Of a stretch of 64,000 bases of DNA, positions 22,168 through 57,861 are shown in pieces. A model generated the notes under the pieces. The model made no database searches. It saw only the letters and a program-made list of their open reading frames with translations, and was not told the DNA's origin. Each line of letters begins with the position of its first letter. Within the stretch, counting starts at the first letter, position 1. A program made the translations under genes and the position numbers. The stretch covers positions 155,294 through 219,293 of the forward strand of contig JAHPZJ010000030.1 in assembly GCA_019058245.1 (NCBI GenBank), read 5' to 3'. This DNA is from Promethearchaeota archaeon (lineage in GTDB: Archaea > Asgardarchaeota > Lokiarchaeia > Sigyniarchaeales > SOKP01).

Positions 22168-22271
22168 GCCTCCGTGGCTTAGTGGTAGAGCAGCAGACAG
22201 GGGTTCATTATTCAACCAACCCTGCATTTGTAATCTGCCGGTCGTGGGTTCAAGTCCCACCGGGGGCTCCA
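22168..22271 (+). tRNA. tRNA-Thr (anticodon TGT at 22229-22231) with a ~29-nt intron (about 22198-22226) and encoded CCA
   Basis: Manual cloverleaf: acceptor GCCTCCG/CGGGGGC, D arm GCTT-AGTGGTA-GAGC. Anticodon stem GCAGA (22193-97)/TCTGC (22234-38), variable CGGTC, T arm GTGGG-TTCAAGT-CCCAC, discriminator T, then CCA. The insert between the stem and the loop contains its own helix CAGGG/CCCTG. Either possible splice register gives anticodon TGT. Confidence 0.85.
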
Positions 22272-32457: not shown

Positions 32458-32467
32458 AATAATTCAC

Positions 32468-33301
32468 CTAACCAAATCTTCCAGTTATATAATTTTCTGT
32501 TAATTGATTGTTTGGATTTTCGAAAATTTGCTCAGTATTTCCAAATTCTATCAATTTTCCTAAATACATAAAACCTGTATAATCACTGATTCTTGCTGCT
32601 TGTTGCATATTATGAGTTACAATTATCATTGTCCATTGTTTCTTCAACTCAAGTATTAATTCTTCTATCTTTTGTGTTGCGATTGGATCAAGTGAAGCAG
32701 TTGGTTCGTCCATTAAAAGAATTTCAGGTTCAACTGCTAAAGCTCTTGCGATACATAATCTTTGTTGCTGACCTCCTGATAATCCCATCGCAGATTCATC
32801 TAATCTATCCCGAACCTCATCCCATAAGACGGCTCTCCTAAGGTTTTTCTCTGTAATTTCAGTTAAGATTTTATCGTCAATGATTTTATGAATTTTTGGA
32901 CCATATGTAATATTATCATATACAGACATTGGAAACGGATTAGGTTTTTGAAAGATCATTCCGATTTTTTTCCTATTCAACCTTATGTCTGCATTTTTCG
33001 AATATAGATTCTCTCCTTGAAATAAGACTTCACCCTCAATTCTGCATCCCTCAATTACATCATTCATGCGATTTAGGCAACGTAGTAAGGTACTTTTTCC
33101 GCATCCCGATGGTCCAATGATTGCTGTAACTTCATTCCGTTTGAATTTCATATTTATATCCATTAAGGCTTGAGATTCTTCATACCATAGATTCAAATTT
33201 CTGCATTCAATTACAGTATCATCTTGGTACATATTTGAATCATTTAAATTGTTCTTGTGTTCAATTTCTAACTTATTTTTATTTTTACTTTTAAAGACCA
33301 A
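32468..33301 (-). CDS. pstB: phosphate ABC transporter ATP-binding protein PstB
   Basis: [52 protein letters not shown] and [12 protein letters not shown] form the classic PstB pattern. Confidence 0.9.
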
Positions 33302-33307
33302 AACAAA

Positions 33308-35443
33308 TCACCATTGTTTTCTTTTTTCATATCTAGATCTTATAACAAATGCTACTCCATATAATATTAATACTAGTAATAATAATGTCAAGGCTGTACC
33401 AGCAGCTTCTTCTACAGAGAATAATGCTTCAGTGAGTAATCTATATAAATGGTAAGTTAGAGCCATTACTGGTTGAAAAATAGACAAGGTAATAATATAT
33501 CTAGAAGTTGTTCTAACAGCCGTAAACATAATTGGAGCCGTTTCTCCTGCACTTCTTCCCATTCCTAAGACGGCACCTGTAACAATTCCTGGTAATGCAG
33601 CAGGTAATACAATTTTACTTATTCCCTGCCATTTACTTGATCCTAAAGCTAAACTTCCTTCTCTAAACGACGGGGGAATTGCTTTAACTGCTTCTTCTGT
33701 AGTTCTTATTATTGTAGGAAGAATCATTAGACCTAAAGTTAACATTCCTGCTATTAGTGACTTTTGTAGTCCAAAAACTACTAGAAAGAGCACAACTCCA
33801 AATAAAGCAAATACTATTGAAGGGGTACCATTTAAATTATCAATTCCAGAACGTATAATTTTTGTAACTTTGTTATCCCTTGCATATTCAGAAAGATAAA
33901 TCCCAGCACACATACCAAGGGGTAAAGCAAAAGCAATAGATCCTAAGGTAAGTTGAATAGTACCTGTGATTGCTGGGAGTATTCCTCCTTCCATTGAACT
34001 AGCCGTAAGAAAATTAGGTCGATATGAGTCTTCCATTCCAGGAATTCTTATTAATACAGGAATACCGTTAGCGATAATATAATACAAGAGTGTTCCTACA
34101 GCAATTACAGCAAATGAAGAACATAAATATACAATTATAAACCAAAATTTTTCTTGACCAACAGTAGAAATTCTTTTAAATATAAGCCTAGTTCCAATAA
34201 TTAATGCAATTACAATAACAGTTAGAAATATTCCAATCCAAGTACTAAGTACCCATCCTGCAAATAACAAAATTACTCCATATAGTATCCATTTCTTTTG
34301 ATTTTTTGGTACTATAGTATACATTTGGAAAGTTAACCCTAATCCTATACAAATTATTGCTCCGACAACTTTAGAAATCATATCAGGTAATATGATAGCT
34401 ATAAAGACAGAGATAATTAAAGCTATTAGCAAAATTCTATATTTTAAAACTTGACTATATATCTTAGATTCTTTAAGATTCACATGTTTTTCTTTTACTT
34501 TTTCTCCTGTAAATTTTCTCTGAATTCTATTTAAAATAACATTTGCAATTGTATTTACCATCAATGTCATTATAAATAATGTTATTCCTAATGCAAAATA
34601 ACTCCTCCATTCTATGCTACCAGTCTCAGTTGGTCCCAAACCTAATCCAATAGTTGAAGTAATTACCGCCACACATGAGAACATGTTTGTTAATGGTTCA
34701 GGGAAAACTTTACAATTACCGATTACTAACATCATTGCCATAGTTTCACCTAAAGCTCTACCGATACCTAAAACTAGGGCAGCTGTAATACCAGACATAC
34801 CTGCAGGTATCACTACCTTACGAATAGTTTGCCATTTTGTTGCTCCCATAGCATATGAAGCCTCTCTATAATAATCTGGAACTGCCCTGATTGAATCTTC
34901 ACAGACCGATACAATTGTAGGTAAAGCCATTATTGCTAATATTAAAGATCCTGATAACCATGTATTTCCATGATGTAAACCAAATAAATCTCTTATTATT
35001 ATATTCAAGACCACAAGACCAAAGAAACCAAAGACAATTGAAGGAATACCAGCAAGAATTTCTATGGTAAATTTAAGAACTTTCCTAAGTTTTGGTGGAG
35101 CTAACTCAGCAAGAAATATGGCAGTCATTAATCCCAGGGGTAATGCGATGATTATAGCTCCGAAAGTAACTAAAAGAGTATCAACAATGATAGGTAAAGC
35201 ACCAAAATCTCCATGCGAAGGAAGCCAATTTGTCCCTAAAAGAAATTCTGTGAGAGATACTTCAGTAAAGAAAGGGCCTCCAATCACAAATAAAAAAATT
35301 ATTATTAAAAAAACAAAAATAGTTGCAATGGAGGCAATGAAAAATAGAATTATCTTGATAAGTTTATCTCTGTCTTTTTTTAAATAAGAATAATCTTCAT
35401 CCTCTATAAACACCTCATTTTCGAAAGTAGTTTCTGTGGACAT
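33308..35443 (-). CDS. pstC-pstA: fused PstC-PstA phosphate ABC permease with an extra hydrophobic linker region
   Basis: 711-aa ORF. The N half has the PstC-type GIGRALGETMAMMLV and the C half has the PstA-type GMGRSAGETAPIMFT. About 120 aa of additional TM segments lie between them (KYRILLIALIISVFIAIIL...IVYLCSSFAVIAVGTLLYYII). Confidence 0.85.
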   Translation of the reverse strand: MSTETTFENEVFIEDEDYSYLKKDRDKLIKIILFFIASIATIFVFLIIIFLFVIGGPFFTEVSLTEFLLGTNWLPSHGDFGALPIIVDTLLVTFGAIIIALPLGLMTAIFLAELAPPKLRKVLKFTIEILAGIPSIVFGFFGLVVLNIIIRDLFGLHHGNTWLSGSLILAIMALPTIVSVCEDSIRAVPDYYREASYAMGATKWQTIRKVVIPAGMSGITAALVLGIGRALGETMAMMLVIGNCKVFPEPLTNMFSCVAVITSTIGLGLGPTETGSIEWRSYFALGITLFIMTLMVNTIANVILNRIQRKFTGEKVKEKHVNLKESKIYSQVLKYRILLIALIISVFIAIILPDMISKVVGAIICIGLGLTFQMYTIVPKNQKKWILYGVILLFAGWVLSTWIGIFLTVIVIALIIGTRLIFKRISTVGQEKFWFIIVYLCSSFAVIAVGTLLYYIIANGIPVLIRIPGMEDSYRPNFLTASSMEGGILPAITGTIQLTLGSIAFALPLGMCAGIYLSEYARDNKVTKIIRSGIDNLNGTPSIVFALFGVVLFLVVFGLQKSLIAGMLTLGLMILPTIIRTTEEAVKAIPPSFREGSLALGSSKWQGISKIVLPAALPGIVTGAVLGMGRSAGETAPIMFTAVRTTSRYIITLSIFQPVMALTYHLYRLLTEALFSVEEAAGTALTLLLLVLILYGVAFVIRSRYEKRKQW

Positions 35444-35519
35444 AGATTTGCGAAATTCTCATTTCTAGTATTTAATTTTTATAGAAGTGAAATTTAGACT
35501 TAATATATTGATAATCCTC

Positions 35520-35538
35520 ATAGAATATATTCGAATAT
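35520..35538. promoter_or_regulatory. ATAGAATATAT word overlapping two nested palindromes (GAATATATTC, ATATTCGAATAT) in the pstS/pstCA intergenic spacer
   Basis: Read directly: exact 11-mer at 35520-35530, 10-bp palindrome at 35523-35532 and 12-bp palindrome at 35527-35538. TCTATATAAAATATATAG follows. Confidence 0.3.
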
Positions 35539-35692
35539 TTACTCTATATAAAATATATAGTATTTTACAAATGGGACAAAATATCTATTTAGTGATTTAT
35601 AGAATTAAGCCTAAATTGTGTAAAAAACAAATTATCTAAAAAAAATAATAAAAAAAATAAAGAATTAAGACCTTCTTATTTAAAATGCGATT

Positions 35693-36592
35693 TTATTTCC
35701 AAATTCGGATAAACCCTTCGGCTGCTACTTCTGCTTGTCCATGTGGACCATAAACAAAATCGATAAAAGCTTTAACCCATCCAGAAGCTGGTCCATTTGT
35801 GGTCAGATGTAGAGATCTTGAAATTGGATAAGAACCATCCAATATAGTAGTTTCACTAGATGCAACTCCATTTATAGGAACTGCTATTACACTAGAATCA
35901 ACATAACCTAACCCACAATATCCAAAACCATATTGATTTGCCGCAACAGTTGTGACCATAACAATATTAGAAGCTACTTCTGTAAATCCAATAACTGAAC
36001 TTTCATATCCAGCATCATCTCCTAATTCTACATCAGTATCAGATAAAACTAATTCTTCAAATGTTGCTCTTGTTCCAGAACCATCAGCTCGGGTATGAAC
36101 ATCAATTGTCTCAGATGATAAAGAAACATCAATATCATTCCATGTATCATAAGTACCATTGTAGATTAAAAAGACCTGTTGCATAGTAAGACCATTTGTT
36201 TGTAACCATAGAGCATCTGGATTACTAGCGTCTATAATCACTGCAATACCATCTTTCGCAAACTTATAATCTGTTAAATCATTACCTGCAGTTGTATTTT
36301 CGCTCGGTTTTATATTACGGGATGACATACCAATGTCATTTTGCCCGTCAATTGTGTCAGAGATACCATCTCCAGATCCTGTACCTGAAACAGAAATATC
36401 AACATTAGAATTTATCTCCATAAAATCGGCAGCACATGCAGTTATTATAGGCTCACATGTAGTGGAACCCGTGATAATGATCGATGATGTTCCTGCTCCA
36501 GAAGGAGTGACAAGGCTAGTAACTCCCCAACCGACGAAAAACATGGCAATCATACCAACAACAGCAATAATCCATATACCATTTTTTTCCAT
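35693..36592 (-). CDS. pstS: phosphate-binding protein PstS, membrane-anchored
   Basis: 299-aa ORF with an N-terminal TM anchor. ITGSTTCEPI, SGTGSGDGI and ADGSGTRATFEE are PstS-family phosphate-binding motifs. It is the first gene of the minus-strand pst operon. Confidence 0.85.
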   Translation of the reverse strand: MEKNGIWIIAVVGMIAMFFVGWGVTSLVTPSGAGTSSIIITGSTTCEPIITACAADFMEINSNVDISVSGTGSGDGISDTIDGQNDIGMSSRNIKPSENTTAGNDLTDYKFAKDGIAVIIDASNPDALWLQTNGLTMQQVFLIYNGTYDTWNDIDVSLSSETIDVHTRADGSGTRATFEELVLSDTDVELGDDAGYESSVIGFTEVASNIVMVTTVAANQYGFGYCGLGYVDSSVIAVPINGVASSETTILDGSYPISRSLHLTTNGPASGWVKAFIDFVYGPHGQAEVAAEGFIRIWK

Positions 36593-36701
36593 TTAATTTC
36601 ACAAATTTTTATTTAAAGACTTTTTTTTTAAATTGTTTAATTAGAGGTATTACTGGGAAAATATAAGAAATCACGACATAGATTATGTAGCATTATTTAC
36701 C

Positions 36702-36715
36702 CTATATATTCTATA
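36702..36715 (-). promoter_or_regulatory. 14-mer TATAGAATATATAG (minus strand), 109 nt upstream of the pstS start
   Basis: The plus strand reads CTATATATTCTATA. It is an exact inverted copy of the 14-mer at 36880-36893. Confidence 0.35.
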
Positions 36716-36879
36716 GAGAAATTCTTTATTTGGAATCTTATTCTCGACAAATAATTATTATGAGATTAATAACCATTTTAGTCTAAATCAAAAATTCTAA
36801 CTATATAGATTAAGAGAAATACAATTTTACTTTTTTGTCAATCTTTCTACTAATTAATAAAACATAAATATAGATATAA

Positions 36880-36893
36880 TATAGAATATATAG
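36880..36893 (+). promoter_or_regulatory. 14-mer TATAGAATATATAG (plus strand), 111 nt upstream of the AbrB-PhoU start
   Basis: It is an exact copy in mirror arrangement with 36702-36715. Additional TATATAG-like words lie at 36895-36901 and 36972-36979; the latter, about 30 nt before the ATG, is a likely TATA box. Confidence 0.35.
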
Positions 36894-37004
36894 AGTATAT
36901 AGTTGAAATATAAAATTGATTAATTATTTATTCTATATAATTATTTTGCAGAAATAAAGACATTTATTAATCTATATAGATAAATTAAGAGATAAGGGAA
37001 ATTT

Positions 37005-38009
37005 ATGTCATTTCATATAGAAACAAGAAAAGTACAAAAAACAGGAGGATCTTCCTATATTATATCTCTACCTAAAGTATGGATTGACAAACATGGGGTA
37101 GAAAAAAATGATACTTTAGGAATATTATCACAACCAGATGGAAATTTGTTGATAACTCCTCAGATTGAAAATGAAAAAGGTATTAAGACAAAAGAGATCG
37201 TTGTTGATGATTATAAGGATGAAAATTTTTTATTCCGGGTATTAATTGGAGCATATATTATGGGATTTTCTAGAATTGTATTAAAATCTAGTAAGAAATT
37301 TGAACCTTTAATGAGAGATACTATAACCAATTTCACTCAAATCGCAATAGGGCCAGAAATTATTGAAGAATCTAATAATTTCATTATGATTAAAGATTTA
37401 CTAAATCCTAAAGAAATGCCTTTTGAAAAAACAATAAAAAGAATGTATATTCTTGTACAGGATATGCATGAGGATGCAATCGATGCTCTAGAAACAGGGA
37501 AAAGCGAATTGGCTGAAGAAGTAATCAAAAGAGACGATGATGTTGACAGATTACATTGGTTGATTAGTCGTCAATCCCATATTGTATTGAGAGATATAAT
37601 TCTTTGCCAGAAAATGGGGATAACTTTAGAACAAGCGAGTCATTATCAACAAATGAGTAGATTCCTTGAAAGAATTGGGGATCATGCTTCAAAGATAGCT
37701 AAAAATGTCTTAATTCTTTTAAAACAAAAAATTGATGATAAGTTAAAGGATGAACTAAAAGAAGTAAGTAAATTGTCACTAGATTTATTGAATAAAAGTC
37801 TTGATGCTTGGCTTCAGAAAAGTATTAGTTTAGCGAATGAAAATATTGAAGAGATAAAAATATTAATCTCAATCACAGAGAAGATAAGTCTTAATACAAA
37901 TGTAAATGTGCAAGTTTCAATGGCGATAGGATATATTATTGAAAGTATAAGAAGAACGGCAGAATACTCTGGAGATATTTCTGAAATAATAATTAATAAT
38001 CTAGTATAA
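37005..38009 (+). CDS. AbrB/SpoVT-domain plus PhoU-domain transcriptional regulator (archaeal phosphate uptake regulator type)
   Basis: 334-aa ORF. The N-terminal swapped-hairpin motif is VQKTGGSSYIISLPKVWIDKHGVEKNDTLGI. PhoU repeats follow (DDDVDRLHWLI, SRFLERIGDHASKIAKN). It is divergent from pstS. Confidence 0.8.
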   Translation: MSFHIETRKVQKTGGSSYIISLPKVWIDKHGVEKNDTLGILSQPDGNLLITPQIENEKGIKTKEIVVDDYKDENFLFRVLIGAYIMGFSRIVLKSSKKFEPLMRDTITNFTQIAIGPEIIEESNNFIMIKDLLNPKEMPFEKTIKRMYILVQDMHEDAIDALETGKSELAEEVIKRDDDVDRLHWLISRQSHIVLRDIILCQKMGITLEQASHYQQMSRFLERIGDHASKIAKNVLILLKQKIDDKLKDELKEVSKLSLDLLNKSLDAWLQKSISLANENIEEIKILISITEKISLNTNVNVQVSMAIGYIIESIRRTAEYSGDISEIIINNLV

Positions 38010-38549: not shown

Positions 38550-39860
38550 TTGGTAGCTCTTATGGAAAATAATACAATAGAACTAAAAAAGTTCTATATT
38601 GGAATATTTTCACTAACTTATTTCACTCAAGGTATTACACAGTCATTTTTTACCACAATTATACCAATTTATTTATTACAATTAATTACAACATTAGATG
38701 CTGGTAAGGTTTCTTCAGTTATGTCAATGATACTTCTTCCTTTTGGAGTGAAATTTATCTATGGGATACTTTCAGATAAATTTGGTTTAAAAAAAAGGGG
38801 AAGGAGAAAACCTTGGATAATTTTTCCTTCAATTATATCTGGTTTACTATGGATAATTCTTCCCTTTGTATTAACACCTAGTAATGCTATGTTAATGGTA
38901 ACATTTCTGGGAGTTTTAATTGTTATTGGAGTGGCAATAGTAGACACTGCAATTGATGGTTTTATTCTCGATCTTTATCCTAAAGAAAGACTTGGACGAG
39001 TTCAAGGAATATGTTGGGGATTTAGATCTTTAGGAATTATTGCTGGTGGACCATTACTAATAGTACTTTTTTTAGGTTTGAGAAGTGTTGTAGAATTTTC
39101 TTTTATAATATTAGGATTTGCAATGATTGTCTTTCCTTTTTTAGTTTTAATTATAAGAGAAACAAAAAAGCCATTATCCATAAATGCATTTAAAAATCTG
39201 AAAGAAATTTTTTATGCGCGTAAAAATTGGAAAGTATTTGGTTTTTCATTATTTAATGCAATTAGTGATGGGGTAATTTTTGTAATTCTACCACTTTTTG
39301 TTCTCATTCAATGGGGGTTAGTTGGAGCTACAGGATCTGAAATTGTTCTTATTGAAAATTTTAATTTATATGCTCCGAACGCTCTAGTTGCTTTGATTAT
39401 TGGTTTAGGTATTATTATTGGATCTTTAATTGGAGGAAGAATTGCAGATCTAAAATCTCGAAAACGTAGTGTTTATTATTCTATCATTATTGAAACAGTC
39501 TGTTTTCTACTTTTTCTAATTCCAGTGCCCTGGTATATTTTATTGATATTTTCATTATTTATAGGAATTGCCTCTGGTTGGAAATATTCCGCATATTCAG
39601 CTGTAATTGGTCAGGAATCACAACTTTATCCTGAAATGGACAGTTCCTATTATGCAACCTGTAGTTCTTTTACTAATTTAGGTACTACATTAGGATTACA
39701 ACTCACAAGTATTTTATTCTTAAGTTTCGCTGGTCTCTCGGTATTTGTAACTTATGCGTTTATTTTTTTAATAATGGGAATCTTAATTAATGTAGATCTG
39801 CTTCCCTTTAATTTCATGGATCCTAAGGAATATGAGATAAATAGAGCGTTAATTGAATAA
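38550..39860 (+). CDS. MFS transporter, folate-biopterin (BT1)-family-like
   Basis: 436-aa ORF with about 12 TM segments. LLPFGVKFIYGILSDKFGLKKRGRRKPWIIF resembles the BT1 loop motif (LP...K...G.LSD......RR). The start may be the ATG at 38562 rather than the TTG. Confidence 0.6.
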   Translation: MVALMENNTIELKKFYIGIFSLTYFTQGITQSFFTTIIPIYLLQLITTLDAGKVSSVMSMILLPFGVKFIYGILSDKFGLKKRGRRKPWIIFPSIISGLLWIILPFVLTPSNAMLMVTFLGVLIVIGVAIVDTAIDGFILDLYPKERLGRVQGICWGFRSLGIIAGGPLLIVLFLGLRSVVEFSFIILGFAMIVFPFLVLIIRETKKPLSINAFKNLKEIFYARKNWKVFGFSLFNAISDGVIFVILPLFVLIQWGLVGATGSEIVLIENFNLYAPNALVALIIGLGIIIGSLIGGRIADLKSRKRSVYYSIIIETVCFLLFLIPVPWYILLIFSLFIGIASGWKYSAYSAVIGQESQLYPEMDSSYYATCSSFTNLGTTLGLQLTSILFLSFAGLSVFVTYAFIFLIMGILINVDLLPFNFMDPKEYEINRALIE

Positions 39861-39990: not shown

Positions 39991-41181
39991 GTGTTTTCAA
40001 TTAAATTAGAATATTCTGAAAGATATAAAAGACTTCCAACCTATATTTTTGTTGAGATAGAACAATTACTTTCAGAAAAAAGAAAAAAAGGGGTTGATAT
40101 TATTCCTTTGGGAATAGGAGATCCTGATATTCCGACTCCTAATTTAATTATCAATGAATTAATAGATCAAGTGAAGAAACCAGAGAATCACCAATATCCC
40201 TCAAGCATGGGAGAAGAAGATTTTAGAGAGGGCGTTGCTAACTGGTATAAGACTAGATTTCATGTTGATTTAGATCCAAAAGAAGAGATTTCAAATATAA
40301 TTGGAGGAAAAGAAGGCGTAGCTAACATTGCTAGAGCATTTGTGAATCCAGGAGATATAGTTCTCTGTCCTAATCCCGGATATCCTGTTTATGAGAACGG
40401 AGCAACAAAATTATGTGATGCCTATCCACATTCAATGCCACTTTTAAAAGAGAACGATTTTTTGCCGGACTTAGATATTATTGATACAAAAATTCTTAAA
40501 AAAGCAAAATTAATGTATTTGAACTATCCTAATAATCCTACTGGTGCGATTGCACCAAAAGAATACCTAAAAAAAGTGGTTGATTATGCTCAAGATTATA
40601 ACTTTTTTATAGTTCATGATAATCCTTATTCAGAATTTACATTTGATGATTATATAGCACCTTCAATTTTACAAATAGATCAGAATCATGTTGAAATCAA
40701 TAGTGCATCTAAAATGTTTAATATGACAGGATTTCGATGTGGATGGATTGCTGGAAATAAAGAAATAATACAAGGAATAAGAAAGATTAAATCTCAAATT
40801 GATTCAGGATGCCCTACTTTTATCCAGAGAGCCGTACTTAAAGGATTAAATGAGTATAACTCTCAAAAAAAACCAGAAATAGTTGAGAAAACAGTAAAAA
40901 TATATGAAAAACGCAGAGATACTATGATTAAAGGATTAAATAATATTGGTTGGTTAACAAATACACCTCAAGCAACGTTTTACGTCTGGATTCAAATACC
41001 TGATAAATATCTTAATAAAGGTTGTATGAATTTTGTAAAATCTTTAATAGAAGTTGGAGTTGTTCTCACTCCAGGGATTGGATTTGGTCAATATGGGGAG
41101 GGTTTTGTTAGAATAGCTTTAACACAGTCAGAACACCGTATAAAAGAAGCAATAGAACGAATTGATAAAGTGATAAATTAA
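39991..41181 (+). CDS. class I PLP aminotransferase, LL-diaminopimelate aminotransferase (DapL)-like
   Basis: 396-aa ORF with a GTG start. It has LPTYIFVEIEQL...IPLGIGDPDIPTP at the N terminus, NYPNNPTG, and the PLP-Lys motif NSASKMFNMTGFRCGW. Confidence 0.7.
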   Translation: MFSIKLEYSERYKRLPTYIFVEIEQLLSEKRKKGVDIIPLGIGDPDIPTPNLIINELIDQVKKPENHQYPSSMGEEDFREGVANWYKTRFHVDLDPKEEISNIIGGKEGVANIARAFVNPGDIVLCPNPGYPVYENGATKLCDAYPHSMPLLKENDFLPDLDIIDTKILKKAKLMYLNYPNNPTGAIAPKEYLKKVVDYAQDYNFFIVHDNPYSEFTFDDYIAPSILQIDQNHVEINSASKMFNMTGFRCGWIAGNKEIIQGIRKIKSQIDSGCPTFIQRAVLKGLNEYNSQKKPEIVEKTVKIYEKRRDTMIKGLNNIGWLTNTPQATFYVWIQIPDKYLNKGCMNFVKSLIEVGVVLTPGIGFGQYGEGFVRIALTQSEHRIKEAIERIDKVIN

Positions 41182-41228: not shown

Positions 41229-41408
41229 TTAGTCCAGTCTTTTTTTCATTTTTAGTCTCAAGGCTTCTAGTCTTCTCTCATCTTTTGCCTCAAGACTTTC
41301 TGAAAAATCATTAGGAATGTCAATAGACATCATGACTGGAGCTTTATAAGAATCCCAATCTTTATAATAATCCAATATTAGATCAATTTCACTTGATTCT
41401 TCCTCCAA
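41229..41408 (-). CDS. possible unannotated 59-aa acidic/basic mini-protein
   Basis: TTG start preceded by GGAGGTGA. Translation is (M)EEESSEIDLILDYYKDWDSYKAPVMMSIDIPNDFSESLEAKDERRLEALRLKMKKRLD*. It is just below the track cutoff. Confidence 0.25.
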   Translation of the reverse strand: MEEESSEIDLILDYYKDWDSYKAPVMMSIDIPNDFSESLEAKDERRLEALRLKMKKRLD

Positions 41409-41843: not shown

Positions 41844-44800
41844 ATGAACTCCGAAAATAAAAATTATTCACAAGAAAAAATTAAAAAGGCTACGGAATTT
41901 CTTCAGAAGTCATGGTGGTTTTGTTTTTACTTAGTTATTGCTCCATTGATTATTGCTTTTTTAATAATAGTTATTTTTATTCAATCTGGAGTAAATATTT
42001 ATATCTCATTAGCATTTTCTGTTTTAAGTTTTATTTTTACACTACTTTTCTTTTTTAAAGTATATGATAAATACAGAAGAAAGCCATTTTTTCTAAATAA
42101 AGAGAATAACCCTACAGCCAGAATTCATAGTTTGTTCTTAATTTCTATATTTTCTTTGATAATAACACCAATATTTTACTTAATTTCACTTATGAATATC
42201 CCATTTACTTTACTTCCTCTAATTAGTTATGCTATTCTTTATAATATCATCTATTATTATTATTATCTTCAACCATTAGATTATTTCAACTTAGAAGAGA
42301 AGGAGTTTAAACATACTGAGAATATCAAGTTAATGTTTATACAACCGTATAACTTTATAATATTTCTTAATTATTTAATCCATATCATTTTCTTAGGAAT
42401 TACAGCATCTACAGAATTTTCTTGGCTTTTCAGTTTAATTTCAGATATAGCAGTCTATATACTCACTTTAGTATCAACTAAAGATCAAATTAGGAAGATT
42501 AAGGAACTTATTGCTGAGAATAAGTCAATTGTAAAAGATTTAATTGTTTTTAAAAAGAAATTTGTAGTTTGTATAGTTAATCTTCTTTTTATCTTATTAA
42601 TTCAAATGCCTTTTGTCAGTATCATTATGTTCAGTCTTAGAGGTGTTCTATATTCAAGTTTAGAACTTATAAGTTATGCATTTTTAACAGTAATTTTCAT
42701 CTTGTTCTATTTTAAATCTAGGTACTATATTAGTGTGTACTATAACACAAGACTTAAATTGTATATAGTATCTGATAATATCAATATTTCAAAAGAAAGT
42801 ACGTTTATAGAATATTTCAAGTATCAAAAACATAATTCTTATTTATCCGGAGTGTTAATTCTATTAATTACTATATTCTCTTTTTTAATTGAAATTCCTC
42901 TTTTAAATGTAATTATTCTTCCTTTCATTTTTATTCTTCTTTATTATGAACAAAAATCAGATCTCTGTCCTAAAAAATATAGCAGATTTGTAGCTTTATT
43001 AAATTCAATTTCAATATTGGCTTCTATCGCTTTTGGTTTAATACCATTGATATCTGAGATGCCCTTATTAAACTTTTTAATTTTTTGTCTTTCATTGTAT
43101 TTTGTATTACAAATTTTTGCTAGATATAAATATTTCATTAAGGATGATATTCTTTTATACCAAAATCTACTTGCTATAGCAAGTTTTATATTATTATTTT
43201 ACTCATTCTTTCCGATAGCTATTATCGAATATACAACCTTTACATCAAACCCAATAATAATTCTTATTTCAAATATACTTTTACATTCATTGATTATTTT
43301 AGTAACCTTCTTAATTTCATTATATATTCTAGGGGTTCGATATTTTTATGCTAAGACCCCGAAATCATTTAAGACCTATATTATCATAATAAGTTTTTTA
43401 ATTGAACTTGTTATTTTTGCACTCATCAATTTTAGGAACTTTTTAGTATTGGGATTTATCAATTTTTTATATTCACTTTGCATCTCATCAATTTTATTCC
43501 CAATTGTTTTCATAGTTTTCCTTTTTGTAAATTATAGTCTAAATGCATTCAAATTAGAATATTTCTTAACCTTATGTTATTATATTTTTTGGATTTTTAT
43601 TGTTGATTTCTTCATTTCTCTGCTGATTATCTCTTTACTCAATATTTACATCATTGTTCTAATATTAGATTGTTTAATTTCATCCATTTTTTATTATTTT
43701 ATATTGAAATTTGGTATGGAATTAGAAAAAATAAATGAATCCAAATTTAATACAAATAATAAAATCAATTCCTATTTAATTGGTATTGAGCTTTTATCAT
43801 TATTTTTTACTATTTTTTTTATAGCTTTTCAATCTATCTCCTTAGCAGAAAATTTAATCTATTCATTATATTTATCATTACTAATCGTCGGTGGATTAGT
43901 CAATCTATTTTCAAAAATAGAAATTTTTTCGGAAGACCTCATTCTTAGAATAAATGCATTTATTCTATTATATAGCTCATTAATAGCTTTTTACTTCATT
44001 TTATTACTTACTTTTAATACAACTTATGTTTATATAGTTCCTCTACTGGTCTTTTCTACAATTTTTTACTTACCGCTTTTATTTTTGAAGAAGAAAAGCA
44101 TATTCAAAAACTTTATATCTAAGTTATTAAAAGTAAATAGTCTGCTATTTTCAGCAACATTATCCTTAATTCCCATTATTATAGGTTTGGAAATGTTCAA
44201 TTTAGGATTATATTTTGATTTAATTTTTTTAATATTTTCTGTAATCAATTTTAGCTTATATATTGTATTCGCTCTTCTTGGTATTTACTATTTCTTATTG
44301 AAGAAAATCAAGGTTGATGAAAATCGAGTTAATCTGATTCTTAAATTACATATATTAATAGCAGTAATTATTGGAATTACAACGATATTTTATTATCCAT
44401 TTTTTCTATTAACCGGGACATTCTATTGCATAGTATTACCATTGATTTTTATGTTCTGCTTCTTTTATATACCTCTTTTTTACTCTTACAAGAAACAGTT
44501 GTTTAATGTTAAACTAGTTAAATTAGAAATAGTTTTAATTACTATAGCTTTAACAGGTTTATTTACTTCAATACCTTCAATAGTTAGTTTAGATTTAATA
44601 AATAAAAGTTTGATATTTTATTCTAAGGTTTTACCTGTAAATATTATAAACTTTTCCTTCTACATTTTCTTTATTTTTTTATTAATTCTTAGTAGTCTAT
44701 TTAAAAAATTAGAATTAAAAAGCAAATTTATTTTAAATTTAGGTAGATTACAATTCTTTACCATATTTTGTATTTCTATTACTACACTATTTTTCTACCC

Positions 44801-47800
44801 ATTTTCATTGTTAAGTGGATTTTTTTATAAAATCCTTATTTCTTTCATTGCTTTATTGTCTTCTTGGTTTTTTATTTTCTATTATGCTTATAGAAAAGAA
44901 TATTTCAATCTAGTATTAGTAAGACTATTAACAATCTATAATTTTACTGTATTATCGTGCTTAATTATTTCGTTACCATTTATAATTGGATTAGAAGTAT
45001 TTGGATTCGCAGCTAATTTCATCCTAATAATAACCCTAACACTATTAATTCTATTTGTTTTTCTTAATATTTTTGAGATTATCGCAAATAAAATTAAGTT
45101 AAAAGAAAGATATATAAAATATTCTAAATTGCTTAAACCAATTCTCTTTTTTCTATTATCATTATTTTTGTCTTATTATATATCTACGATTTTTATTATT
45201 AGACTTACACTAACTCCTATAACTTTTCTAGTGTTAAGTTGTAGCTTTTTAGTTTTTTTCTTATTAAGTATGTATACCCTGGAACTTACATTTTCCTATG
45301 ATCCCAAATTATTGACATTAAAAAAGTATAAAGATATTATCATTTATGGAATCATTCTTTCATTATCATCAATTTTTACTTTTTTAAGCATATCAACAAA
45401 TATTCTTTCATCTTTTTTTCTAACTTCAATAATATTTAATTCATCTATTATAATTGGTGTTTTTACTTCATTATTTCTTTTATTTTTGATTCTGGGTGAC
45501 AATTTAATAGAATTGAAATTACCGCAGGTAAAAATAATCTGCGAATTAATTGCATGGGTAATTATAAAGGTAATATTATGCATTTTAACATTTTTTCTTA
45601 TTGACGTTTTTGCGTATCAATTCTTTATTGTAAATAAAATATTGCTAGTTTCATTAATTTTTACCGTTCTTACACCCTTAAGTCTTCATATATTAAAAAA
45701 TCTGAGTTTAGTATCATCTAAAAATAAATTACTAATAAAAAAACTAACTGAAATTGTATTTATTATTTCTTTATTAGGAATTTATACTGAAATTTCTTAC
45801 AATTTATTAAATTTAATACCACTATTTTATCAGAACTCACTTTTGAAAATAGTATCTCTCACTATTAATCTGATTTTAATTTTATATTATTTTTCTATAA
45901 AGTATAATAGAGTACTAGAAGAACATTCTTCACTCAATATTTACAGCTTTTATTTAACATCCTTCTTATTATTTTTCAGCTTTCTTTATTTTAATACTAA
46001 TCTTTCAGTTTTCCTTATATTACTATCGTATGTATTAATTCTTTCTAAGAGGAGCATAATTTCTATTTTTCGGTTTTTATCATATTTCTTACTAAGTTAT
46101 TATACTTTTACTACGATTCTAGTAATTATAAATTTCTATGGGGTTACAATAGCGTTTAATTTAACAAATCTAAGTATATTCATCAATCTATATCTCTTAA
46201 CGACAATTTTCGTTTTGGTTTTCTCTATTATTCTAAATATAAAGAAAAATAATACCCAAGAAAAATTTACATTATATTCTCTAATTTCTATACTCTCTTA
46301 TGTTTCTCTCATGAACTTTACAAATATTTTATCAATTTATAACATTACAATTTCACTTTTCATATTCTTATTCTTTATGGGAATTTACTTTCATCATCAA
46401 AAAGATGAACGTTATAAATGGTTTATTAAGCCTTGTTTAATTTTGTTTATCTTTGACTTTATTAGCTTTCTATCATATTCATGGTTCTTTAATAATCAGA
46501 TTTATGATACTTACAATCCAATTTTAACTTTCACTCTTACTCTTAGTATAACAGGTTTTGGATTCGTTTTATTGTATAATGAGGCTCCAAGAAAATTTCG
46601 AAAGAAATTCTTCTATATTATACTAGCATCAATAGTTATTGCTTTTCCAATCTTTATCTATTTTTTAATGATTGCGTCTTTATCAATGCCATTATTATCT
46701 ATAGTTCCATTAATAGTCGCAATAGATTTTGGTGTTTTTCTTTTTTATCTTTGTATTGCAATATATCACTGGAGGATTTCATGGGCAATTTGGAAATCTG
46801 GATGGTATGTGTGGAATATTCTACCTTTTGTTAACTTCTTTATTATATATCAAAGTTTTACTGGAATTGATGTATTCACTGACTCATTGCAATTTGGATT
46901 AATTCAAGTAGAAGGTTCATTAATAATTTCAATGATAATATGTTCTTTATTTTTCTTGCCAGTATTGTATACAAAAATTAAAAAATATTTTTTTTATATA
47001 ATATTTATTATATGGGGTGAAAGTCTATTTTTACTCTATTGGGTTAACTCAAATTTATTTGTCAGTGATCTAGTATTAAGAAATTTATCTTTTGTTTTAT
47101 TTTCAGTTATACTATTAATGCCTTTATTCGCGGGATTTAAATATTGGAAAATGGTGTCGATATTTTGGCTTTTATTAACTATAATTAATAGTTTATTTTT
47201 ATTGGGCTATTTAGTTTCTATTGGGGTCAATTTAGAAATGGTAATTTCAATTGACATTTTAGTTTTTGGGTTATTTTTTATTGTTTATTCATTTTTTCCA
47301 AATATAAGATCCTATGGAGTTATATTAATAAGTGCCTATCTTATTACACTTTCAGGTATTTTCTCCACAGTTTTATTCATTTTTTATTTATTATTATTAG
47401 ATCCCATATTTTCTGTGAACATTAGTTTTATCATAGTTGGTTTAAGTCTTTTTTCCTCAAAATATTTAAAATTATCGAATAGAATTATAGATCATAGTCT
47501 CTCTTGGGTATTAATATTCAACTTAGCATGGTTAACTTTCAATACTTTCAATCTATTTCCAGGATTTGTTGTGTTTGCATTCTCTTTAGCACTAACTGTT
47601 TTTGGATTTTCATTTTTCATCTTTAATCACTACAAAATGAAAATGCCTATTAGAATTATAATTCCAAGTTCAATTATCACGATTGGGGCTTCTCTTTCAG
47701 TCACCTCTTTTATATCTTTAATTTTTAAAGCATCCCCCGGGATATTAATCTCTACGTTTTCTTCAGTATTTATAGTATTCTTATATTTTTTAATTAAAGA

Positions 47801-56427: not shown

Positions 56428-57861
56428 ATGTCTGAACCATCATTAGAAAATTTGTTAAGGGATGCCAGAGTTGATCTGGTATTATCTAGAATAGAGAGTA
56501 ATCCATCTGTAATTAGTGAAGTTATTAAATATTTGGATAGTTCAATAAGATCTATAAAATTCAATTCAATTAACGTTTTAGGGCAAGTAGGAGACAAATC
56601 CAAAACCGCTGTTCCTAAGTTAATAAAACTTTTAGAGGATGAGGATTGGAGTATTTGTCGAGAAACTGTACGTTCTTTGGGAAATATTGGAGAGCTTGCA
56701 AAAGATGCAATACCCAATCTATCGAAATTGCTTAATAGTAAAGAAATATCTATTCGCAAAGAAGCCGCAATAAGTCTTGGTAAAATAGGAAATCCAACTA
56801 AAGATTCAATTTCAGGTTTAGTTAAGGCATGTAATGATGATAGTGAGGAAGTTCGAACTGAAGCAGCAAGAAGCATTGGAGAACTAGGGCCAGAAGCTCA
56901 AGGATCTATACCACAATTAATGAAGTGTCTTAAAGATGCAGATTGGGCGGTTAGAACAGCTTCTGCTCAATCAATTAGTAAGATTGGAAAAGGATCTACA
57001 ATAGCCATTCCTCAACTGATTCAATCATTAGAAGACAAAGATTGGAGAGTACAATACAGAGTAATAAATACATTGGCGGATATTGGTCGAGAAGCTGTTC
57101 AAAGCCTTTTAGAAGTATTAAACCATAAGAAAAAAAATGTCAGAATTGGAGCAATTGATGCTTTAAGTGAAATGAAAATAAGTGATCCAGAAGTTATAAA
57201 TAGGTTAGCTATTCTATTAAAAGATAAAAAAGAAGCTGTACGAGGAAAAGCCGCATATGCTCTTCGAAATATTGGAAAAGATAGCATTCCAGCCTTAGTT
57301 AAAGCACTTGATACAGCTAATAAAAAAATGCAGATCGTAATTCTTACAGCAATAGGAGGAATTGGTAAGGATGCAGCAGAGGTAATCCCCACTATTATAA
57401 ATTTTCTAAAGCATCCTGAACAAGATAATGAACTTCCACTCTCACAGTCGTTCTTTGGAAGAATAGGACAAGCATTTTCAACATTTTTTACTGATCCAAC
57501 CTCAACAAAAAGTAAAATTCGTGTTGAAGCAGCAAGAACTCTCGGTAGAATTGGACCAGAATCGGAAAATGTTATAAAAGCCCTTGAAATAGCATTAAGA
57601 GATCCAAAGAAGAATGTTCGTCGGGAAGCCGCTCTTGCGTTAGGTAAATTTGGATCATTATCAAAAATGAGTATTCCATCTTTGATCAATGCATTAAATG
57701 ATAGAAGTCCAGATGTAAGATGGAGAATTTCTGAAGCGTTGGGTAAGATAGGTGAAAAAACAACAGAAGTTGTTTCAATCCTAAATGAATTAATACATGA
57801 TAAATGTGATTATGTATGTGAATCAGCTTATAATGCTCTTGATGAATTAACTGGTGAATAA
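56428..57861 (+). CDS. HEAT-repeat (PBS-lyase-type) protein, about a dozen ~31-aa repeats
   Basis: 477-aa ORF starting 11 nt after the livF stop. The repeating pattern is D(x)W(x)VR(x)xAAxSLGxIGxxAxxAIPxLxxxLxD, for example DEDWSICRETVRSLGNIGELAKDAIPNL, DADWAVRTASAQSISKIG and SPDVRWRISEALGKIG. Confidence 0.8.
   Translation: MSEPSLENLLRDARVDLVLSRIESNPSVISEVIKYLDSSIRSIKFNSINVLGQVGDKSKTAVPKLIKLLEDEDWSICRETVRSLGNIGELAKDAIPNLSKLLNSKEISIRKEAAISLGKIGNPTKDSISGLVKACNDDSEEVRTEAARSIGELGPEAQGSIPQLMKCLKDADWAVRTASAQSISKIGKGSTIAIPQLIQSLEDKDWRVQYRVINTLADIGREAVQSLLEVLNHKKKNVRIGAIDALSEMKISDPEVINRLAILLKDKKEAVRGKAAYALRNIGKDSIPALVKALDTANKKMQIVILTAIGGIGKDAAEVIPTIINFLKHPEQDNELPLSQSFFGRIGQAFSTFFTDPTSTKSKIRVEAARTLGRIGPESENVIKALEIALRDPKKNVRREAALALGKFGSLSKMSIPSLINALNDRSPDVRWRISEALGKIGEKTTEVVSILNELIHDKCDYVCESAYNALDELTGE

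What the first reader, a model, noticed from the sequence alone, without database searches (positions are those of the whole stretch)
41844..50444. 8.6-kb gene encoding a 2866-aa protein that is almost wall-to-wall transmembrane helices (about 90 by eye)
Seen in sequence: one uninterrupted ORF runs through DNA where stop codons (TAA/TAG/TGA) are compositionally favoured. Every other frame over the same span is chopped into 128 aa or less, so the ORF is under selection. My manual segmentation gives roughly 90 hydrophobic 18-25-residue runs separated by short K/R/N/E loops. The longest polar stretches are only about 30-45 aa. Examples are KRSIQKETHKIQEEAQEIKNSIFAIYKDKNQLKW near aa 2036 and the amphipathic EQLKELFNWLVDTILKIFKNLKIMIKNFLLKISHFIKIHYKT near the C terminus. 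That leaves no room for a conventional soluble catalytic or binding domain. Established knowledge: the best-known extreme polytopic proteins, Piezo channels, have 38 TM helices per chain, built from repeated 4-TM bundles. This protein would exceed that more than two-fold. Inference: it may be a membrane-embedded scaffold, curvature or mechanics device, or a lipid-organising array rather than a classical transporter. I cannot assign a function and know no characterised family it matches.
Basis: partly seen in the sequence, partly recalled or inferred. Interest (0 to 1): 0.85.

Follow-up and report, generated by a model that had tools for sequence, protein, structure and literature searches.

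The report
Giant ~90-helix Asgard membrane protein
This is a real, conserved gene of Lokiarchaeia-type Asgard archaea, including the cultured strains, for a 2866-residue protein that is almost entirely membrane-spanning helices (about 90, more than twice the 38 of Piezo); it matches no known family or fold and its function is unknown.

Summary
Window 41844-50444 (+) is one 2866-codon ORF. It is under purifying selection (core dN/dS 0.12-0.26) and has host-like GC3. A second study assembled it independently with no indels.

Three crude methods give 63-91 membrane helices, most likely about 89. They form about 45 hairpins with K/R-rich cytoplasmic loops and outer turns of 1-5 residues.

It is the single-copy member of an uncharacterised family of 2500-4900 aa proteins with 80-127 predicted helices. 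The family was found only in one Asgard order: 50/68 and 12/14 genomes of two families, 0/226 elsewhere in the phylum. Members include DSAG12_00898 of P. syntrophicum MK-D1 and NEF87_002906 of Ca. L. ossiferum.

The protein is modular. Four tandem 134-aa four-helix repeats (1-6 copies in orthologues) and a second repeat array flank a length-invariant 650-aa core rich in invariant Trp, Pro and Asn. A conserved C-terminal module follows.

Pfam, NCBIfam, PDB sequences, an exhaustive HMM scan of 1.84 billion proteins and fold searches gave no known relative.

Best guess at low confidence: an in-membrane helical-repeat scaffold. A Piezo-like channel is the main rival. The family is uncharacterised, and cultures exist in which to test it.

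The parts
41844..50444 (+). Whole gene: 2866-aa giant polytopic membrane protein (P0001), about 89 predicted TM helices
   Evidence: Homologues. Single copy in its genome.
41844..43772 (+). N-terminal region, aa 1-643: about 18 predicted helices. Aa 1-300 is variable in the family. Aa 314-640 is weakly related to the A repeats.
   Evidence: Conservation profile. Self hhalign 625-1136 vs 314-874, E 1e-13.
43773..45380 (+). Repeat array A: four tandem units of about 134 aa (aa 644-782, 777-916, 911-1050, 1045-1179). Each unit is one short interfacial helix plus four TM helices. Orthologues carry 1-6 units.
   Evidence: jackhmmer E 4.5e-15 to 1.8e-40. hhalign probability 97.9-99.8%. AF2 two-unit model pLDDT 91, pTM 0.82.
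46011..47963 (+). Conserved core, aa 1390-2040: 21-23 helices. Length is nearly fixed, about 640-665 aa in all but one of the 82 aligned homologues (one has 689). Mean column identity is 50%.
   Evidence: dN/dS 0.12-0.26.
46461..47723 (+). Sub-core, aa 1540-1960: the part still recognisable in the sister family (MK-D1, L. ossiferum, H. repetitus).
   Evidence: Tile HMMs, E 9e-12 to 8e-35. Alignment A3.
46764..46919 (+). Aa 1641-1692: helix with conserved Trp at 1643, 1647, 1650 and 1657 (spaced 3-4 or 7 apart), followed by invariant P1661 and N1664 and the longest K/R-free (outer) loop, with D1676 and G1691-S1692. The in/out alternation of loops slips here. AF2 confidence is low just after it.
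47952..48050 (+).
48144..49847 (+). Repeat array B, aa 2101-2668: 2101-2238 resembles 2227-2366, and 2242-2420 resembles 2491-2668. Weakly related to array A.
   Evidence: jackhmmer E 2.5e-15 and 1.5e-26. Tile hits. hhalign 2298-2594 vs 1051-1380, E 1e-4.
49611..50441 (+). Conserved C-terminal module, aa 2590-2866. It includes a long amphipathic K-rich cytoplasmic segment (aa about 2680-2722; window 49881-50009) and the invariant E2680, E2828 and R2838.

Best explanation
What it is (shown): a genuine, vertically inherited, single-copy gene for a giant polytopic membrane protein of about 89 TM helices. The helices form about 45 hairpins. Cytoplasmic loops are 10-40 residues and rich in K/R. Outer turns are 1-5 residues, so almost nothing protrudes from the cell. 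The gene belongs to an uncharacterised family confined, among the genomes searched, to one order of Lokiarchaeia-type Asgard archaea. The protein is modular. Arrays of about 134-aa four-helix repeats, whose copy number changes between species, flank a length-invariant 650-aa core. A conserved C-terminal module with a long amphipathic cytoplasmic segment follows.

How it most likely works (inferred, low confidence): it acts inside the bilayer as a structural helical-repeat array, a 'transmembrane solenoid or palisade'. By ordinary helix packing it would cover roughly 90-110 nm2 of membrane. Its role would be to stiffen, shape or partition the membrane, or to anchor cytoplasmic partners on its K/R-rich loops. 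The conserved core and C-terminal module would serve as the fixed hub, and repeat gain or loss would tune the array length. On this reading it does not work as a conventional transporter or enzyme. Its hairpins have very short outer turns, so they could insert by an Oxa1/YidC-type route (inference from established knowledge).
For: Real gene:
- Chance probability of an open frame this long is about 2e-97.
- 86 homologues at E = 0 to 1e-150.
- dN/dS is 0.12-0.26 over the core, including an unsaturated pair with dS 0.19.
- GC3 is 0.199 against 0.16-0.26 in neighbouring genes.
- An independent contig carries it without indels.
- The MK-D1 orthologue DSAG12_00898 has RPKM 152 in Imachi et al. 2020, Supplementary Table 3 (PMC7015854). 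This is weak evidence because the table is very flat.

Topology:
- 89-91 helices are predicted.
- In the charge-blind segmentation, long K/R-bearing loops alternate with 1-5-residue K/R-free turns over dozens of consecutive loops.
- The charge-aware model places 175 K+R inside and 12 outside.

Repeats and modularity. Unit copy number ranges from 1 to 6 across orthologues, which is typical of structural repeat arrays.

The two-unit AF2 model is confident (pLDDT 91, pTM 0.82). Its only, weak, structural neighbours are helical-repeat or solenoid proteins: designed DHR/DHF repeats, Bro1, 14-3-3 and TPR.

Invariant core residues are Trp, Pro, Phe, Tyr, Ser, Asn and Arg. The one mid-helix acidic position (E1726) is Leu, Phe, Ile or Val in 34 of 82 sequences.

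No soluble domain and no Pfam hit, even at E <= 1 on tiles. There is no conserved operon partner.
Against: - No direct evidence of any function. 'Scaffold' is largely an argument from the absence of catalytic or transport signatures.
- The core is far more conserved than a passive spacer would need. It is nearly fixed in length and carries invariant R1403, N1664, N1737 and S1816, a conserved outer loop and a helix with conserved Trp. That pattern fits a specific binding or conducting site.
- The core model has pTM of only 0.49.
- The helix counts come from crude home-made predictors.
- Protein-level expression is not shown.
Confidence: 0.4

Rival explanations
1. Channel or mechanosensor analogous to Piezo. 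The four-helix repeat arrays would act as membrane-embedded 'blades' that sense tension or curvature. The conserved core and/or C-terminal module, possibly after oligomerisation, would form an ion-conducting or otherwise gated pathway.
For: - Tandem four-helix units match the organising principle of Piezo blades (established knowledge: 9 four-helix units plus a C-terminal pore module, 38 TM in all).
- Two modules stay conserved across both families while the arrays vary.
- Invariant N1664 and N1737, a conserved outer loop (D1676 in 68/82, Asn in 11), and a topology slip that could mark a re-entrant element.
- A long amphipathic cytoplasmic segment lies near the C terminus.
Against: - No Piezo Pfam domain matches, even at E <= 1.
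- No invariant intramembrane charged residue; E1726 is variable.
- There is no extracellular cap-like domain, since the outer loops total only about 200 residues.
- Nothing here shows that the protein oligomerises.
Confidence: 0.2
2. Membrane-embedded enzyme or lipid-handling machine. Examples would be a polyprenol-, lipid- or glycan-processing activity, a scramblase, or a lipid conduit. The activity would sit in the conserved core, with the repeat arrays as anchoring or substrate-gathering extensions.
For: - Invariant interfacial R1403, E1473 (E 79, D 3) and R1586, plus invariant Asn, Ser and Trp in the core. Trp-rich faces often contact head groups or sugars (general knowledge).
- The core is under strong purifying selection.
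- In L. ossiferum an acyltransferase gene lies near the gene on the opposite strand, and in MK-D1 a flotillin/SPFH gene lies directly upstream. Each is a single case.
Against: - No sequence or fold similarity to GT-C glycosyltransferases, scramblases, MBOAT, CDP-alcohol transferases or any other enzyme family.
- No DxD, His or Asp/Glu motif conserved inside helices.
- No extramembrane catalytic domain.
- Neighbouring genes are not conserved.
Confidence: 0.12
3. Not a functional cellular protein. Either it is a composition-driven open frame or assembly artefact in AT-rich DNA, or it is cargo of a mobile element like the giant 'aloposon' genes reported in Heimdallarchaeia.
For: - The coding strand is T-rich (46% T, 54% at codon position 2), which by itself favours Phe, Ile and Leu.
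- Asgard genomes do carry giant genes on mobile elements (PMC8813620).
- No RNA holder was listed for this exact sequence.
Against: - Chance probability of the open frame is about 2e-97.
- The protein is conserved at 30-77% identity across two families, with a core of nearly fixed length.
- dN/dS is 0.12-0.26.
- A second study assembled it without indels.
- GC3 equals that of the neighbours.
- It is single copy, and local synteny is shared with relatives.
- Rfam (gathering threshold, whole window) and ARAGORN found no tRNA nearer than 22168-22268, and no integrase or ParA-type domain turned up among the ORFs of 140 aa or more scanned between 31 and 61 kb.
Confidence: 0.02

Closest known systems
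Piezo mechanosensitive channels (eukaryotes; 38 TM per chain)
   Same: A very large polytopic protein partly built from tandem four-helix transmembrane units. It has conserved non-repeat modules, one of them C-terminal. Extramembrane mass is minimal over the arrays.
   Different: - No sequence match to Piezo Pfam models.
- About 89 helices here, and up to about 127 in relatives, against 38.
- No extracellular cap domain.
- The most conserved module is central rather than C-terminal.
- Trimerisation and conductance are untested.
- The host is archaeal rather than eukaryotic.
Soluble alpha-solenoid / helical-repeat proteins (TPR, 14-3-3, Bro1, designed DHR/DHF repeats)
   Different: Those proteins are water-soluble, whereas here every long helix is hydrophobic and of membrane-spanning length. 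The scores are below the level that indicates a shared fold for helical proteins. There is no sequence similarity.
Large bacterial multi-TM DUFs (DUF2339 PF10101, DUF2157 PF09925) and EccD of type VII secretion
   Different: No HMM match. They are several-fold smaller. The similarity is within the range seen for unrelated helical bundles.
Giant genes of Asgard 'aloposons' (Otus/Ephialtes, Heimdallarchaeia; Wu et al. 2022, PMC8813620)
   Same: Very long ORFs (3000-6000 aa) in Asgard genomes. That paper's Extended Data Fig. 7b lists giant proteins above 3000 aa for selected Asgard representatives, without characterising them.
   Different: Aloposon giants come as tandem pairs next to a tRNA integration site with a ParA/MinD-type gene set. 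This gene is single, lies among housekeeping transport genes, has host GC3 and follows the species' families.

Membership tests
Piezo channels | Sequence match to Piezo family profiles | tested here: not met
   hmmscan against Pfam-A: no family for the whole protein at E <= 0.01 or for six tiles at E <= 1.
Piezo channels | Blade built from tandem four-TM helical units | tested here: met
   Four tandem units of about 134 aa. Each unit is modelled as four long helices plus a short one (pLDDT 91). This is an architectural analogy only.
Piezo channels | Structural superposition of the repeat unit on a Piezo THU | tested here: inconclusive
   Foldseek, VIA-wide and VIA second-look lists show no Piezo chain among the rows displayed. 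A targeted superposition could not be run.
Piezo channels | Large extracellular cap domain and C-terminal pore helices forming a trimer | tested here: not met
   Cap: the longest K/R-free (outer) loop is about 17-24 residues and all outer loops together total about 200 residues, so there is no cap-like domain. Trimerisation was not tested.
DUF2339 / DUF2157 membrane proteins | Match to PF10101 or PF09925 | tested here: not met
   No Pfam hit at E <= 1. Only weak shape or feature neighbours: feature score 0.81-0.83, TM-score by query 0.23-0.37.
EccD (T7SS membrane scaffold) | EccD/YukD profiles; 11-TM fold | tested here: inconclusive
GT-C type membrane glycosyltransferases | Conserved acidic motif in the first outer loop plus a sizeable outer domain; family profiles | tested here: not met
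   No Pfam or NCBIfam hit. There is no outer domain and no invariant acidic residue in outer loops of the core; D1676 is Asp in 68/82.
Aloposon giant genes (mobile element cargo) | Tandem giant genes beside a tRNA integration site with a ParA/MinD gene set | tested here: not met
   Single gene. The nearest tRNA is at 22168-22268. Neighbours are Pst, MFS, aminotransferase and Liv genes. GC3 is host-like.
The new family itself (Promethearchaeales giant polytopic protein) | 650-aa core with invariant R1403, W1650, P1661, N1664, P1706, W1724, W1768, W1775, S1816, F1818-P1819 and Y1832; conserved C-terminal module; more than 75 TM helices | tested here: met
   Alignments A1 and A5. Orthologues in MK-D1, L. 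ossiferum and H. repetitus.

The most novel reading that the evidence does not exclude
This family is a new class of membrane-architecture protein. A single chain of 90-127 transmembrane helices would form an in-plane helical-repeat palisade, either a ribbon or a closed fence. It would mechanically support, shape or compartmentalise the membrane of Lokiarchaeia-type Asgard archaea. In the cultured strains these cells form long protrusions and have no detected S-layer. That would make it an intramembrane skeleton with no known counterpart, in the closest prokaryotic relatives of eukaryotes.
Probability: 0.25. Interest if true: 0.92.

Novelty: categorically new. Interest (0 to 1): 0.8.

Why it matters
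If the helix count holds, these are by a wide margin the most membrane-spanning single polypeptides I know of: about 89 helices here and about 100-127 in MK-D1, L. ossiferum and H. repetitus, against 38 for Piezo.

This raises basic questions. How is such a chain inserted and folded? What can 100 nm2 of pure protein-in-bilayer do? The family is restricted to, and nearly universal in, the Asgard order that contains the only long-studied cultured relatives of eukaryotes. The membrane behaviour of those organisms (protrusions, vesicles, no detected S-layer) is central to models of eukaryogenesis.

Because MK-D1 and L. ossiferum can be grown and imaged by cryo-ET, the question is directly testable. 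The orthologues DSAG12_00898 and NEF87_002906 give experimenters a handle. Even if the function proves mundane, the confident four-helix repeat model offers a natural template for membrane-embedded repeat-protein design.

Tried and rejected
- Self-BLASTP with composition correction found no internal repeats. Profile tiles were needed to see them.
- Pfam on the whole protein and on six tiles at E <= 1, and NCBIfam at E <= 1, gave nothing for P0001. In homologue P0080 the only hits were a weak zinc-ribbon/TcaA-like stretch at aa 160-225.
- A PDB sequence profile search with the core gave 0 hits at E <= 1.
- The exhaustive HMM search with the core profile over 1.84e9 representatives found only 53 proteins, all giants or their fragments, and no smaller or more distant family.
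- A profile of the single four-helix unit against proteins of 70-261 aa gave no hit at E <= 0.01, so no free-standing precursor was found.
- Complex prediction on core (1540-1960) plus C-terminal module (2590-2866) returned 'no answer' with score 0.00. This is no evidence either way.
- The look-up of sequencing runs listed no RNA holder for this sequence, which is no evidence on expression.
- Six literature searches found no paper describing the family or its locus tags. The 'huge proteins' survey covers only proteins above 5000 aa.
- I first read E1726 as an invariant intramembrane glutamate from an 8-sequence alignment. I rejected this after the 82-sequence alignment showed E in only 48/82.
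- The bacterial-type promoter/terminator scan was uninformative: counts were as in shuffles, and the scan does not model archaeal promoters.
- A conserved-operon hypothesis was rejected because neighbours differ between loci.
Full report
1. THE OBSERVATION.
Window 41844-50444 (+) is a single ATG-initiated ORF of 2866 codons. In the other five frames the longest stop-free stretch is 131 codons and the longest ORF is 128 aa. The ORF's own composition is A 31% and T 46%. At that composition a stop is expected in 7.5% of codons, so the chance of 2866 stop-free codons is about 2e-97.

The overall GC of the gene is low (23% against about 30% for its neighbours). This comes from codon positions 1 and 2, that is, from the amino-acid composition. 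GC3 is 0.199, within the 0.16-0.26 of the 15 neighbouring genes. So the gene is native and not recently acquired.

Contigs from public runs cover the whole stretch. One run (X1) may be the source of the assembly. A run from a different study (X2) holds a 7701-base contig over 41661-49361 with only three substitutions (T1315I, N1550Y and a synonymous F1665) and no insertion or deletion. The long frame is therefore not an assembly artefact.

2. IS IT REALLY WALL-TO-WALL TRANSMEMBRANE?
The protein has GRAVY +1.19, and L+I+F make up 47.5% of residues. DeepTMHMM and TOPCONS were not available, so I used three crude and independent estimates.
- A Kyte-Doolittle greedy scan (19-residue window) gives 63, 72, 80 and 85 segments at thresholds 2.0, 1.8, 1.6 and 1.4.
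- A duration-HMM with my own rough emission tables gives 89 helices. A version blind to charge gives 91.
- AlphaFold2 secondary structure on the two modelled tiles (925 residues in all) shows 28-29 helices of 17 residues or more. That is one per 32-33 residues, or about 88-90 for the whole chain.

The charge-blind segmentation is the most telling result. Loops alternate regularly between 10-40-residue loops carrying K/R and 1-5-residue turns with none, over dozens of consecutive loops. This is the positive-inside rule repeated about 45 times. The charge-aware model places 175 K+R inside and 12 outside, with only about 200 residues outside in total.

The protein is thus a chain of tight helical hairpins. 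Its only extramembrane mass is short cytoplasmic loops.

3. RELATIVES.
A word-indexed search of 5.8 billion proteins returned 86 clusters of 1626-3754 aa at E = 0 to 1e-150. All are 'hypothetical' or 'membrane protein of unknown function', and all come from Asgard MAGs. The window's genome (3.09 Mb, 76% complete) has one copy.

I then searched 301 genomes of the phylum with the core profile. Matches occurred in 50/68 genomes of the window's own family and 6/7 of a sister family. None occurred in 226 genomes of 28 other families. A fuller search of the sister family gave 12/14.

Exact look-ups name the sister-family members:
- Ca. Harpocratesius repetitus FW102 (MCF2139232.1, 4296 aa).
- Promethearchaeum syntrophicum MK-D1 (DSAG12_00898 / QEE15075.1, 3940 aa).
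- Ca. Lokiarchaeum ossiferum B35 (NEF87_002906 / UYP46621.1, 3146 aa), plus a second paralogue of 4908 aa.

NCBI taxonomy places H. repetitus in the Promethearchaeaceae, Promethearchaeales. Some MAG homologues are labelled Hodarchaeota or Thorarchaeota by their submitters. The genome search does not support presence outside this order.

The sister-family proteins are just as hydrophobic. GRAVY is 0.86-1.01, with 79-115 segments by the greedy scan and 99-127 helices by the HMM.

An exhaustive HMMER scan of 1.84 billion representatives with the core profile found only 53 proteins, all giants or fragments of giants. Nothing scored weaker than E of about 4.5e-9 within the 0.001 cut-off. The family is sharply bounded.

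4. ANATOMY.
A MAFFT alignment of the 86 homologues shows the most conserved stretch at aa 1400-2030. The 82-sequence core alignment (aa 1390-2040) has 50% mean column identity. Its length is nearly constant: about 640-665 residues in all but one homologue (689). The sequence before the core varies from about 930 to about 1780 residues.

Part of that variation is explained by a tandem repeat. Aa 644-782, 777-916, 911-1050 and 1045-1179 are four copies of a unit of about 134 aa (jackhmmer E 4.5e-15 to 1.8e-40; hhalign probability 97.9-99.8%). Orthologues carry 1-6 copies.

An AlphaFold2 model of two consecutive units is confident (pLDDT 91, pTM 0.82). Each unit is a short helix followed by four long helices. 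The sequence shows K/R loops after helices 1 and 3, and tight turns (TGT and GLE-type) on the other side.

A second repeat system lies after the core. Aa 2101-2238 resembles 2227-2366 (E 2.5e-15), and 2242-2420 resembles 2491-2668 (E 1.5e-26). Profile self-comparison suggests that aa 314-640 and the B array are more distant copies of the same kind of unit (E 1e-13 and 1e-4). Much of the protein therefore probably arose by internal duplication of a four-helix module.

Between the two Asgard families only three parts remain recognisable:
- the sub-core aa 1540-1960 (E down to 8e-35);
- the C-terminal module aa 2590-2800 (E down to 7e-14);
- faintly, the N terminus.

5. THE CORE.
The AF2 model of the core is moderately confident (pLDDT 78.7, pTM 0.49). 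It is all-helical with 20-21 long helices, and it has a low-confidence stretch at model residues 286-345.

Invariant residues in 82 sequences are R1403, W1650, P1661, N1664, P1706, W1724, W1768, W1775, S1816, F1818, P1819 and Y1832. Nearly invariant are E1473, R1586, W1657, N1737 and others.

Aa 1643-1657 carry conserved Trp at 1643, 1647, 1650 and 1657, spaced 3-4 or 7 residues apart, which would put them on one face of a helix. They are followed by P1661 and N1664 and by the longest K/R-free loop of the protein (1669-1692). That loop carries D1676 (Asp in 68/82, Asn in 11) and G1691-S1692. The in/out alternation of loops slips exactly here. This could mean an interfacial or re-entrant element.

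An 8-sequence alignment suggested an invariant mid-helix glutamate, E1726. The 82-sequence alignment shows Glu in only 48, with Leu, Phe, Ile or Val in 34. So the core has no strictly conserved intramembrane charge.

dN/dS over the core against 11 congeners is 0.12-0.26. This includes an unsaturated pair with dS 0.19 and dN/dS 0.26.

6. COMPARISON WITH WHAT IS KNOWN.
Pfam-A gave no hit for the whole protein or for six tiles, even at E <= 1. NCBIfam gave none. A profile search of all PDB sequences gave none.

Fold searches with both models gave no Foldseek match at E <= 0.001.

For the two-unit model the best rows are:
- soluble helical-repeat proteins by Foldseek: designed DHR/DHF repeats with probability up to 0.98 and TM-score 0.32-0.44;

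A profile of the single unit found no free-standing protein of 70-261 aa.

Six full-text searches found no paper on the family or its locus tags. Wu et al. 2022 (PMC8813620) tabulate giant proteins above 3000 aa for selected Asgard representatives in an extended-data figure. They discuss only the unrelated 'aloposon' giants.

7. CONTEXT.
In the window the gene sits among the following genes:
- a Pst phosphate-transport operon (31.8-36.6 kb, minus strand);
- a PhoU-AbrB protein (37005-38009);
- an MFS transporter (38550-39860);
- a class I/II aminotransferase (39991-41181);
- then, downstream of the giant gene, a Liv-type ABC transporter (50617-56416);
- a HEAT-repeat protein;
- an acyl-CoA synthetase.

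A close relative keeps the aminotransferase, the Liv operon and the AMP-binding gene. A second keeps only the upstream part. A third has an unrelated neighbourhood.

The sister-family loci differ again. MK-D1 has a flotillin/SPFH gene upstream and an amidohydrolase downstream. H. repetitus has a PhoU-domain gene downstream. L. ossiferum has an acyltransferase nearby. There is no conserved partner, and the gene looks monocistronic. A 662-nt AT-rich region lies upstream and contains TATA-like runs about 30-45 nt before the ATG (inference only).

8. EXPRESSION.
No RNA run was listed for this exact sequence (this is no evidence either way). For the MK-D1 orthologue, Supplementary Table 3 of Imachi et al. 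2020 (PMC7015854) gives RPKM 152 for DSAG12_00898. This is the third-lowest of the 116 genes on that part of the table, where values range from 109 to 375 and SecY has 345. The table has very little dynamic range. I therefore take it as weak evidence that the 11.8-kb gene is transcribed at somewhat below typical level.

9. HOW IT PROBABLY WORKS.
Shown:
- It is a real, selected, lineage-restricted protein made of about 45 membrane hairpins.
- It is organised as variable repeat arrays around a fixed core and a conserved C-terminal module.
- It has essentially no exposed domains and no detectable relative.

Inferred: the features fit an in-membrane structural array better than a transporter or enzyme.
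- Repeat number changes freely between orthologues.
- Invariant positions are dominated by Trp, Pro, Phe, Tyr, Ser and Asn, which are packing and interface residues.
- No intramembrane charge is conserved.
- There is no catalytic motif, no partner gene and no soluble domain.
- The confident repeat model looks like a solenoid of stacked hairpins.

At about 1-1.2 nm2 per helix the chain would occupy roughly 90-110 nm2 of bilayer. As a two-row ribbon it would be about 40-45 nm long. This is arithmetic from standard helix packing, not a result.

Cultured members of this order form long protrusions. In a proteomic study of MK-D1 no candidate S-layer protein was detected (PMC11284389). An intramembrane scaffold is therefore an attractive idea, but it is untested. 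I put this mechanism at about 0.4.

The main rival (0.2) is a Piezo-like device in which the arrays serve a conserved conducting or sensing core. The nearly fixed length of the core, the helix with conserved Trp, the conserved outer loop and the topology slip all argue that the core does something specific. A lipid- or glycan-handling activity (0.12) cannot be excluded. Artefact or mobile-element cargo is effectively excluded (0.02). The remaining probability lies with functions I have not thought of.

I tested whether the two conserved modules pack together with complex prediction. It returned no answer and carries no weight.

10. NOVELTY AND VERDICT.
The family is present in databases only as 'hypothetical protein'. 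In the literature searched it is undescribed. It has no sequence or fold relative.

I rate it categorically new as a kind of protein, while stressing that the function is unknown. Interest is 0.8. It is surprising, it sits in the organisms most relevant to eukaryogenesis, and it can be tested directly because orthologues exist in culturable strains.

Noticed in passing
window 22168-22268 (+): Rfam calls a tRNA of 101 nt (53.6 bits, full model 1-71), so it probably contains an intron. ARAGORN found no tRNA in the whole window.
   Followed up: partly
window 41229-41408 (-): A 59-aa ORF lies in the 662-nt intergenic region upstream of the giant gene. It has an acidic N-terminal half and a K/R-rich C-terminal tail. 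It is unannotated and could be a small regulator or chance.
   Followed up: no
window 31804-38009; L018:3021-4088 (-): The window has a Pst phosphate operon with a fused 711-aa PstC/A-type permease (33308-35443), a PhoU gene (31804-32457) and a PhoU + AbrB/MazE-type fusion protein (37005-38009). A PhoU-domain protein also lies directly downstream of the giant gene in Ca. H. repetitus. This may be remnant synteny or coincidence.
   Followed up: partly
L019:2206-3441 (+) (P. syntrophicum MK-D1): A flotillin/SPFH (Band 7) gene, DSAG12_00897, lies directly upstream of the MK-D1 orthologue on the same strand. A membrane-microdomain scaffold next to a giant membrane protein is suggestive, but it was seen in only this one locus.
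   Followed up: partly
L020:4778-19504 (+) and L021:3326-12766 (+) (Ca. L. ossiferum B35): L. ossiferum carries two paralogues (4908 aa and 3146 aa) about 240 kb apart, whereas almost all other genomes have one copy. The 4908-aa ORF as I called it is not in the protein collection under that exact sequence.
   Followed up: partly
P0080 aa 160-225 (homologue, Promethearchaeota MAG): One family member has a weak zinc-ribbon/TcaA-like insert in an N-terminal cytoplasmic loop (NCBIfam E 5e-4 to 0.1) and is named 'zinc ribbon domain-containing protein' by NCBI. Sister-family members have polar inserts of 60-115 aa with no Pfam hit.
   Followed up: partly
Imachi et al. 2020 Supplementary Table 3 (PMC7015854): The MK-D1 RPKM values are unusually flat, 109-375 over 116 consecutive genes including ribosomal protein and SecY genes. 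The table discriminates expression levels poorly.
   Followed up: no
window 52042-52967: A 926-nt stretch between the Liv solute-binding gene and the first permease gene has no ORF of 100 aa or more. It is unusually long for an operon, and the permease start may be mis-called or a small gene or RNA may lie there.
   Followed up: no
window 56391-57861: The 477-aa HEAT-repeat protein (56428-57861, +) is overlapped by two antisense ORFs of 161 and 196 aa. These are probably spurious frames over a repeat gene.
   Followed up: no
homologue names: Some close homologues are labelled Hodarchaeota or Thorarchaeota by submitters. Yet the genome search finds the family only in one order (two families) of the phylum. 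The MAG labels are probably wrong or outdated.
   Followed up: partly
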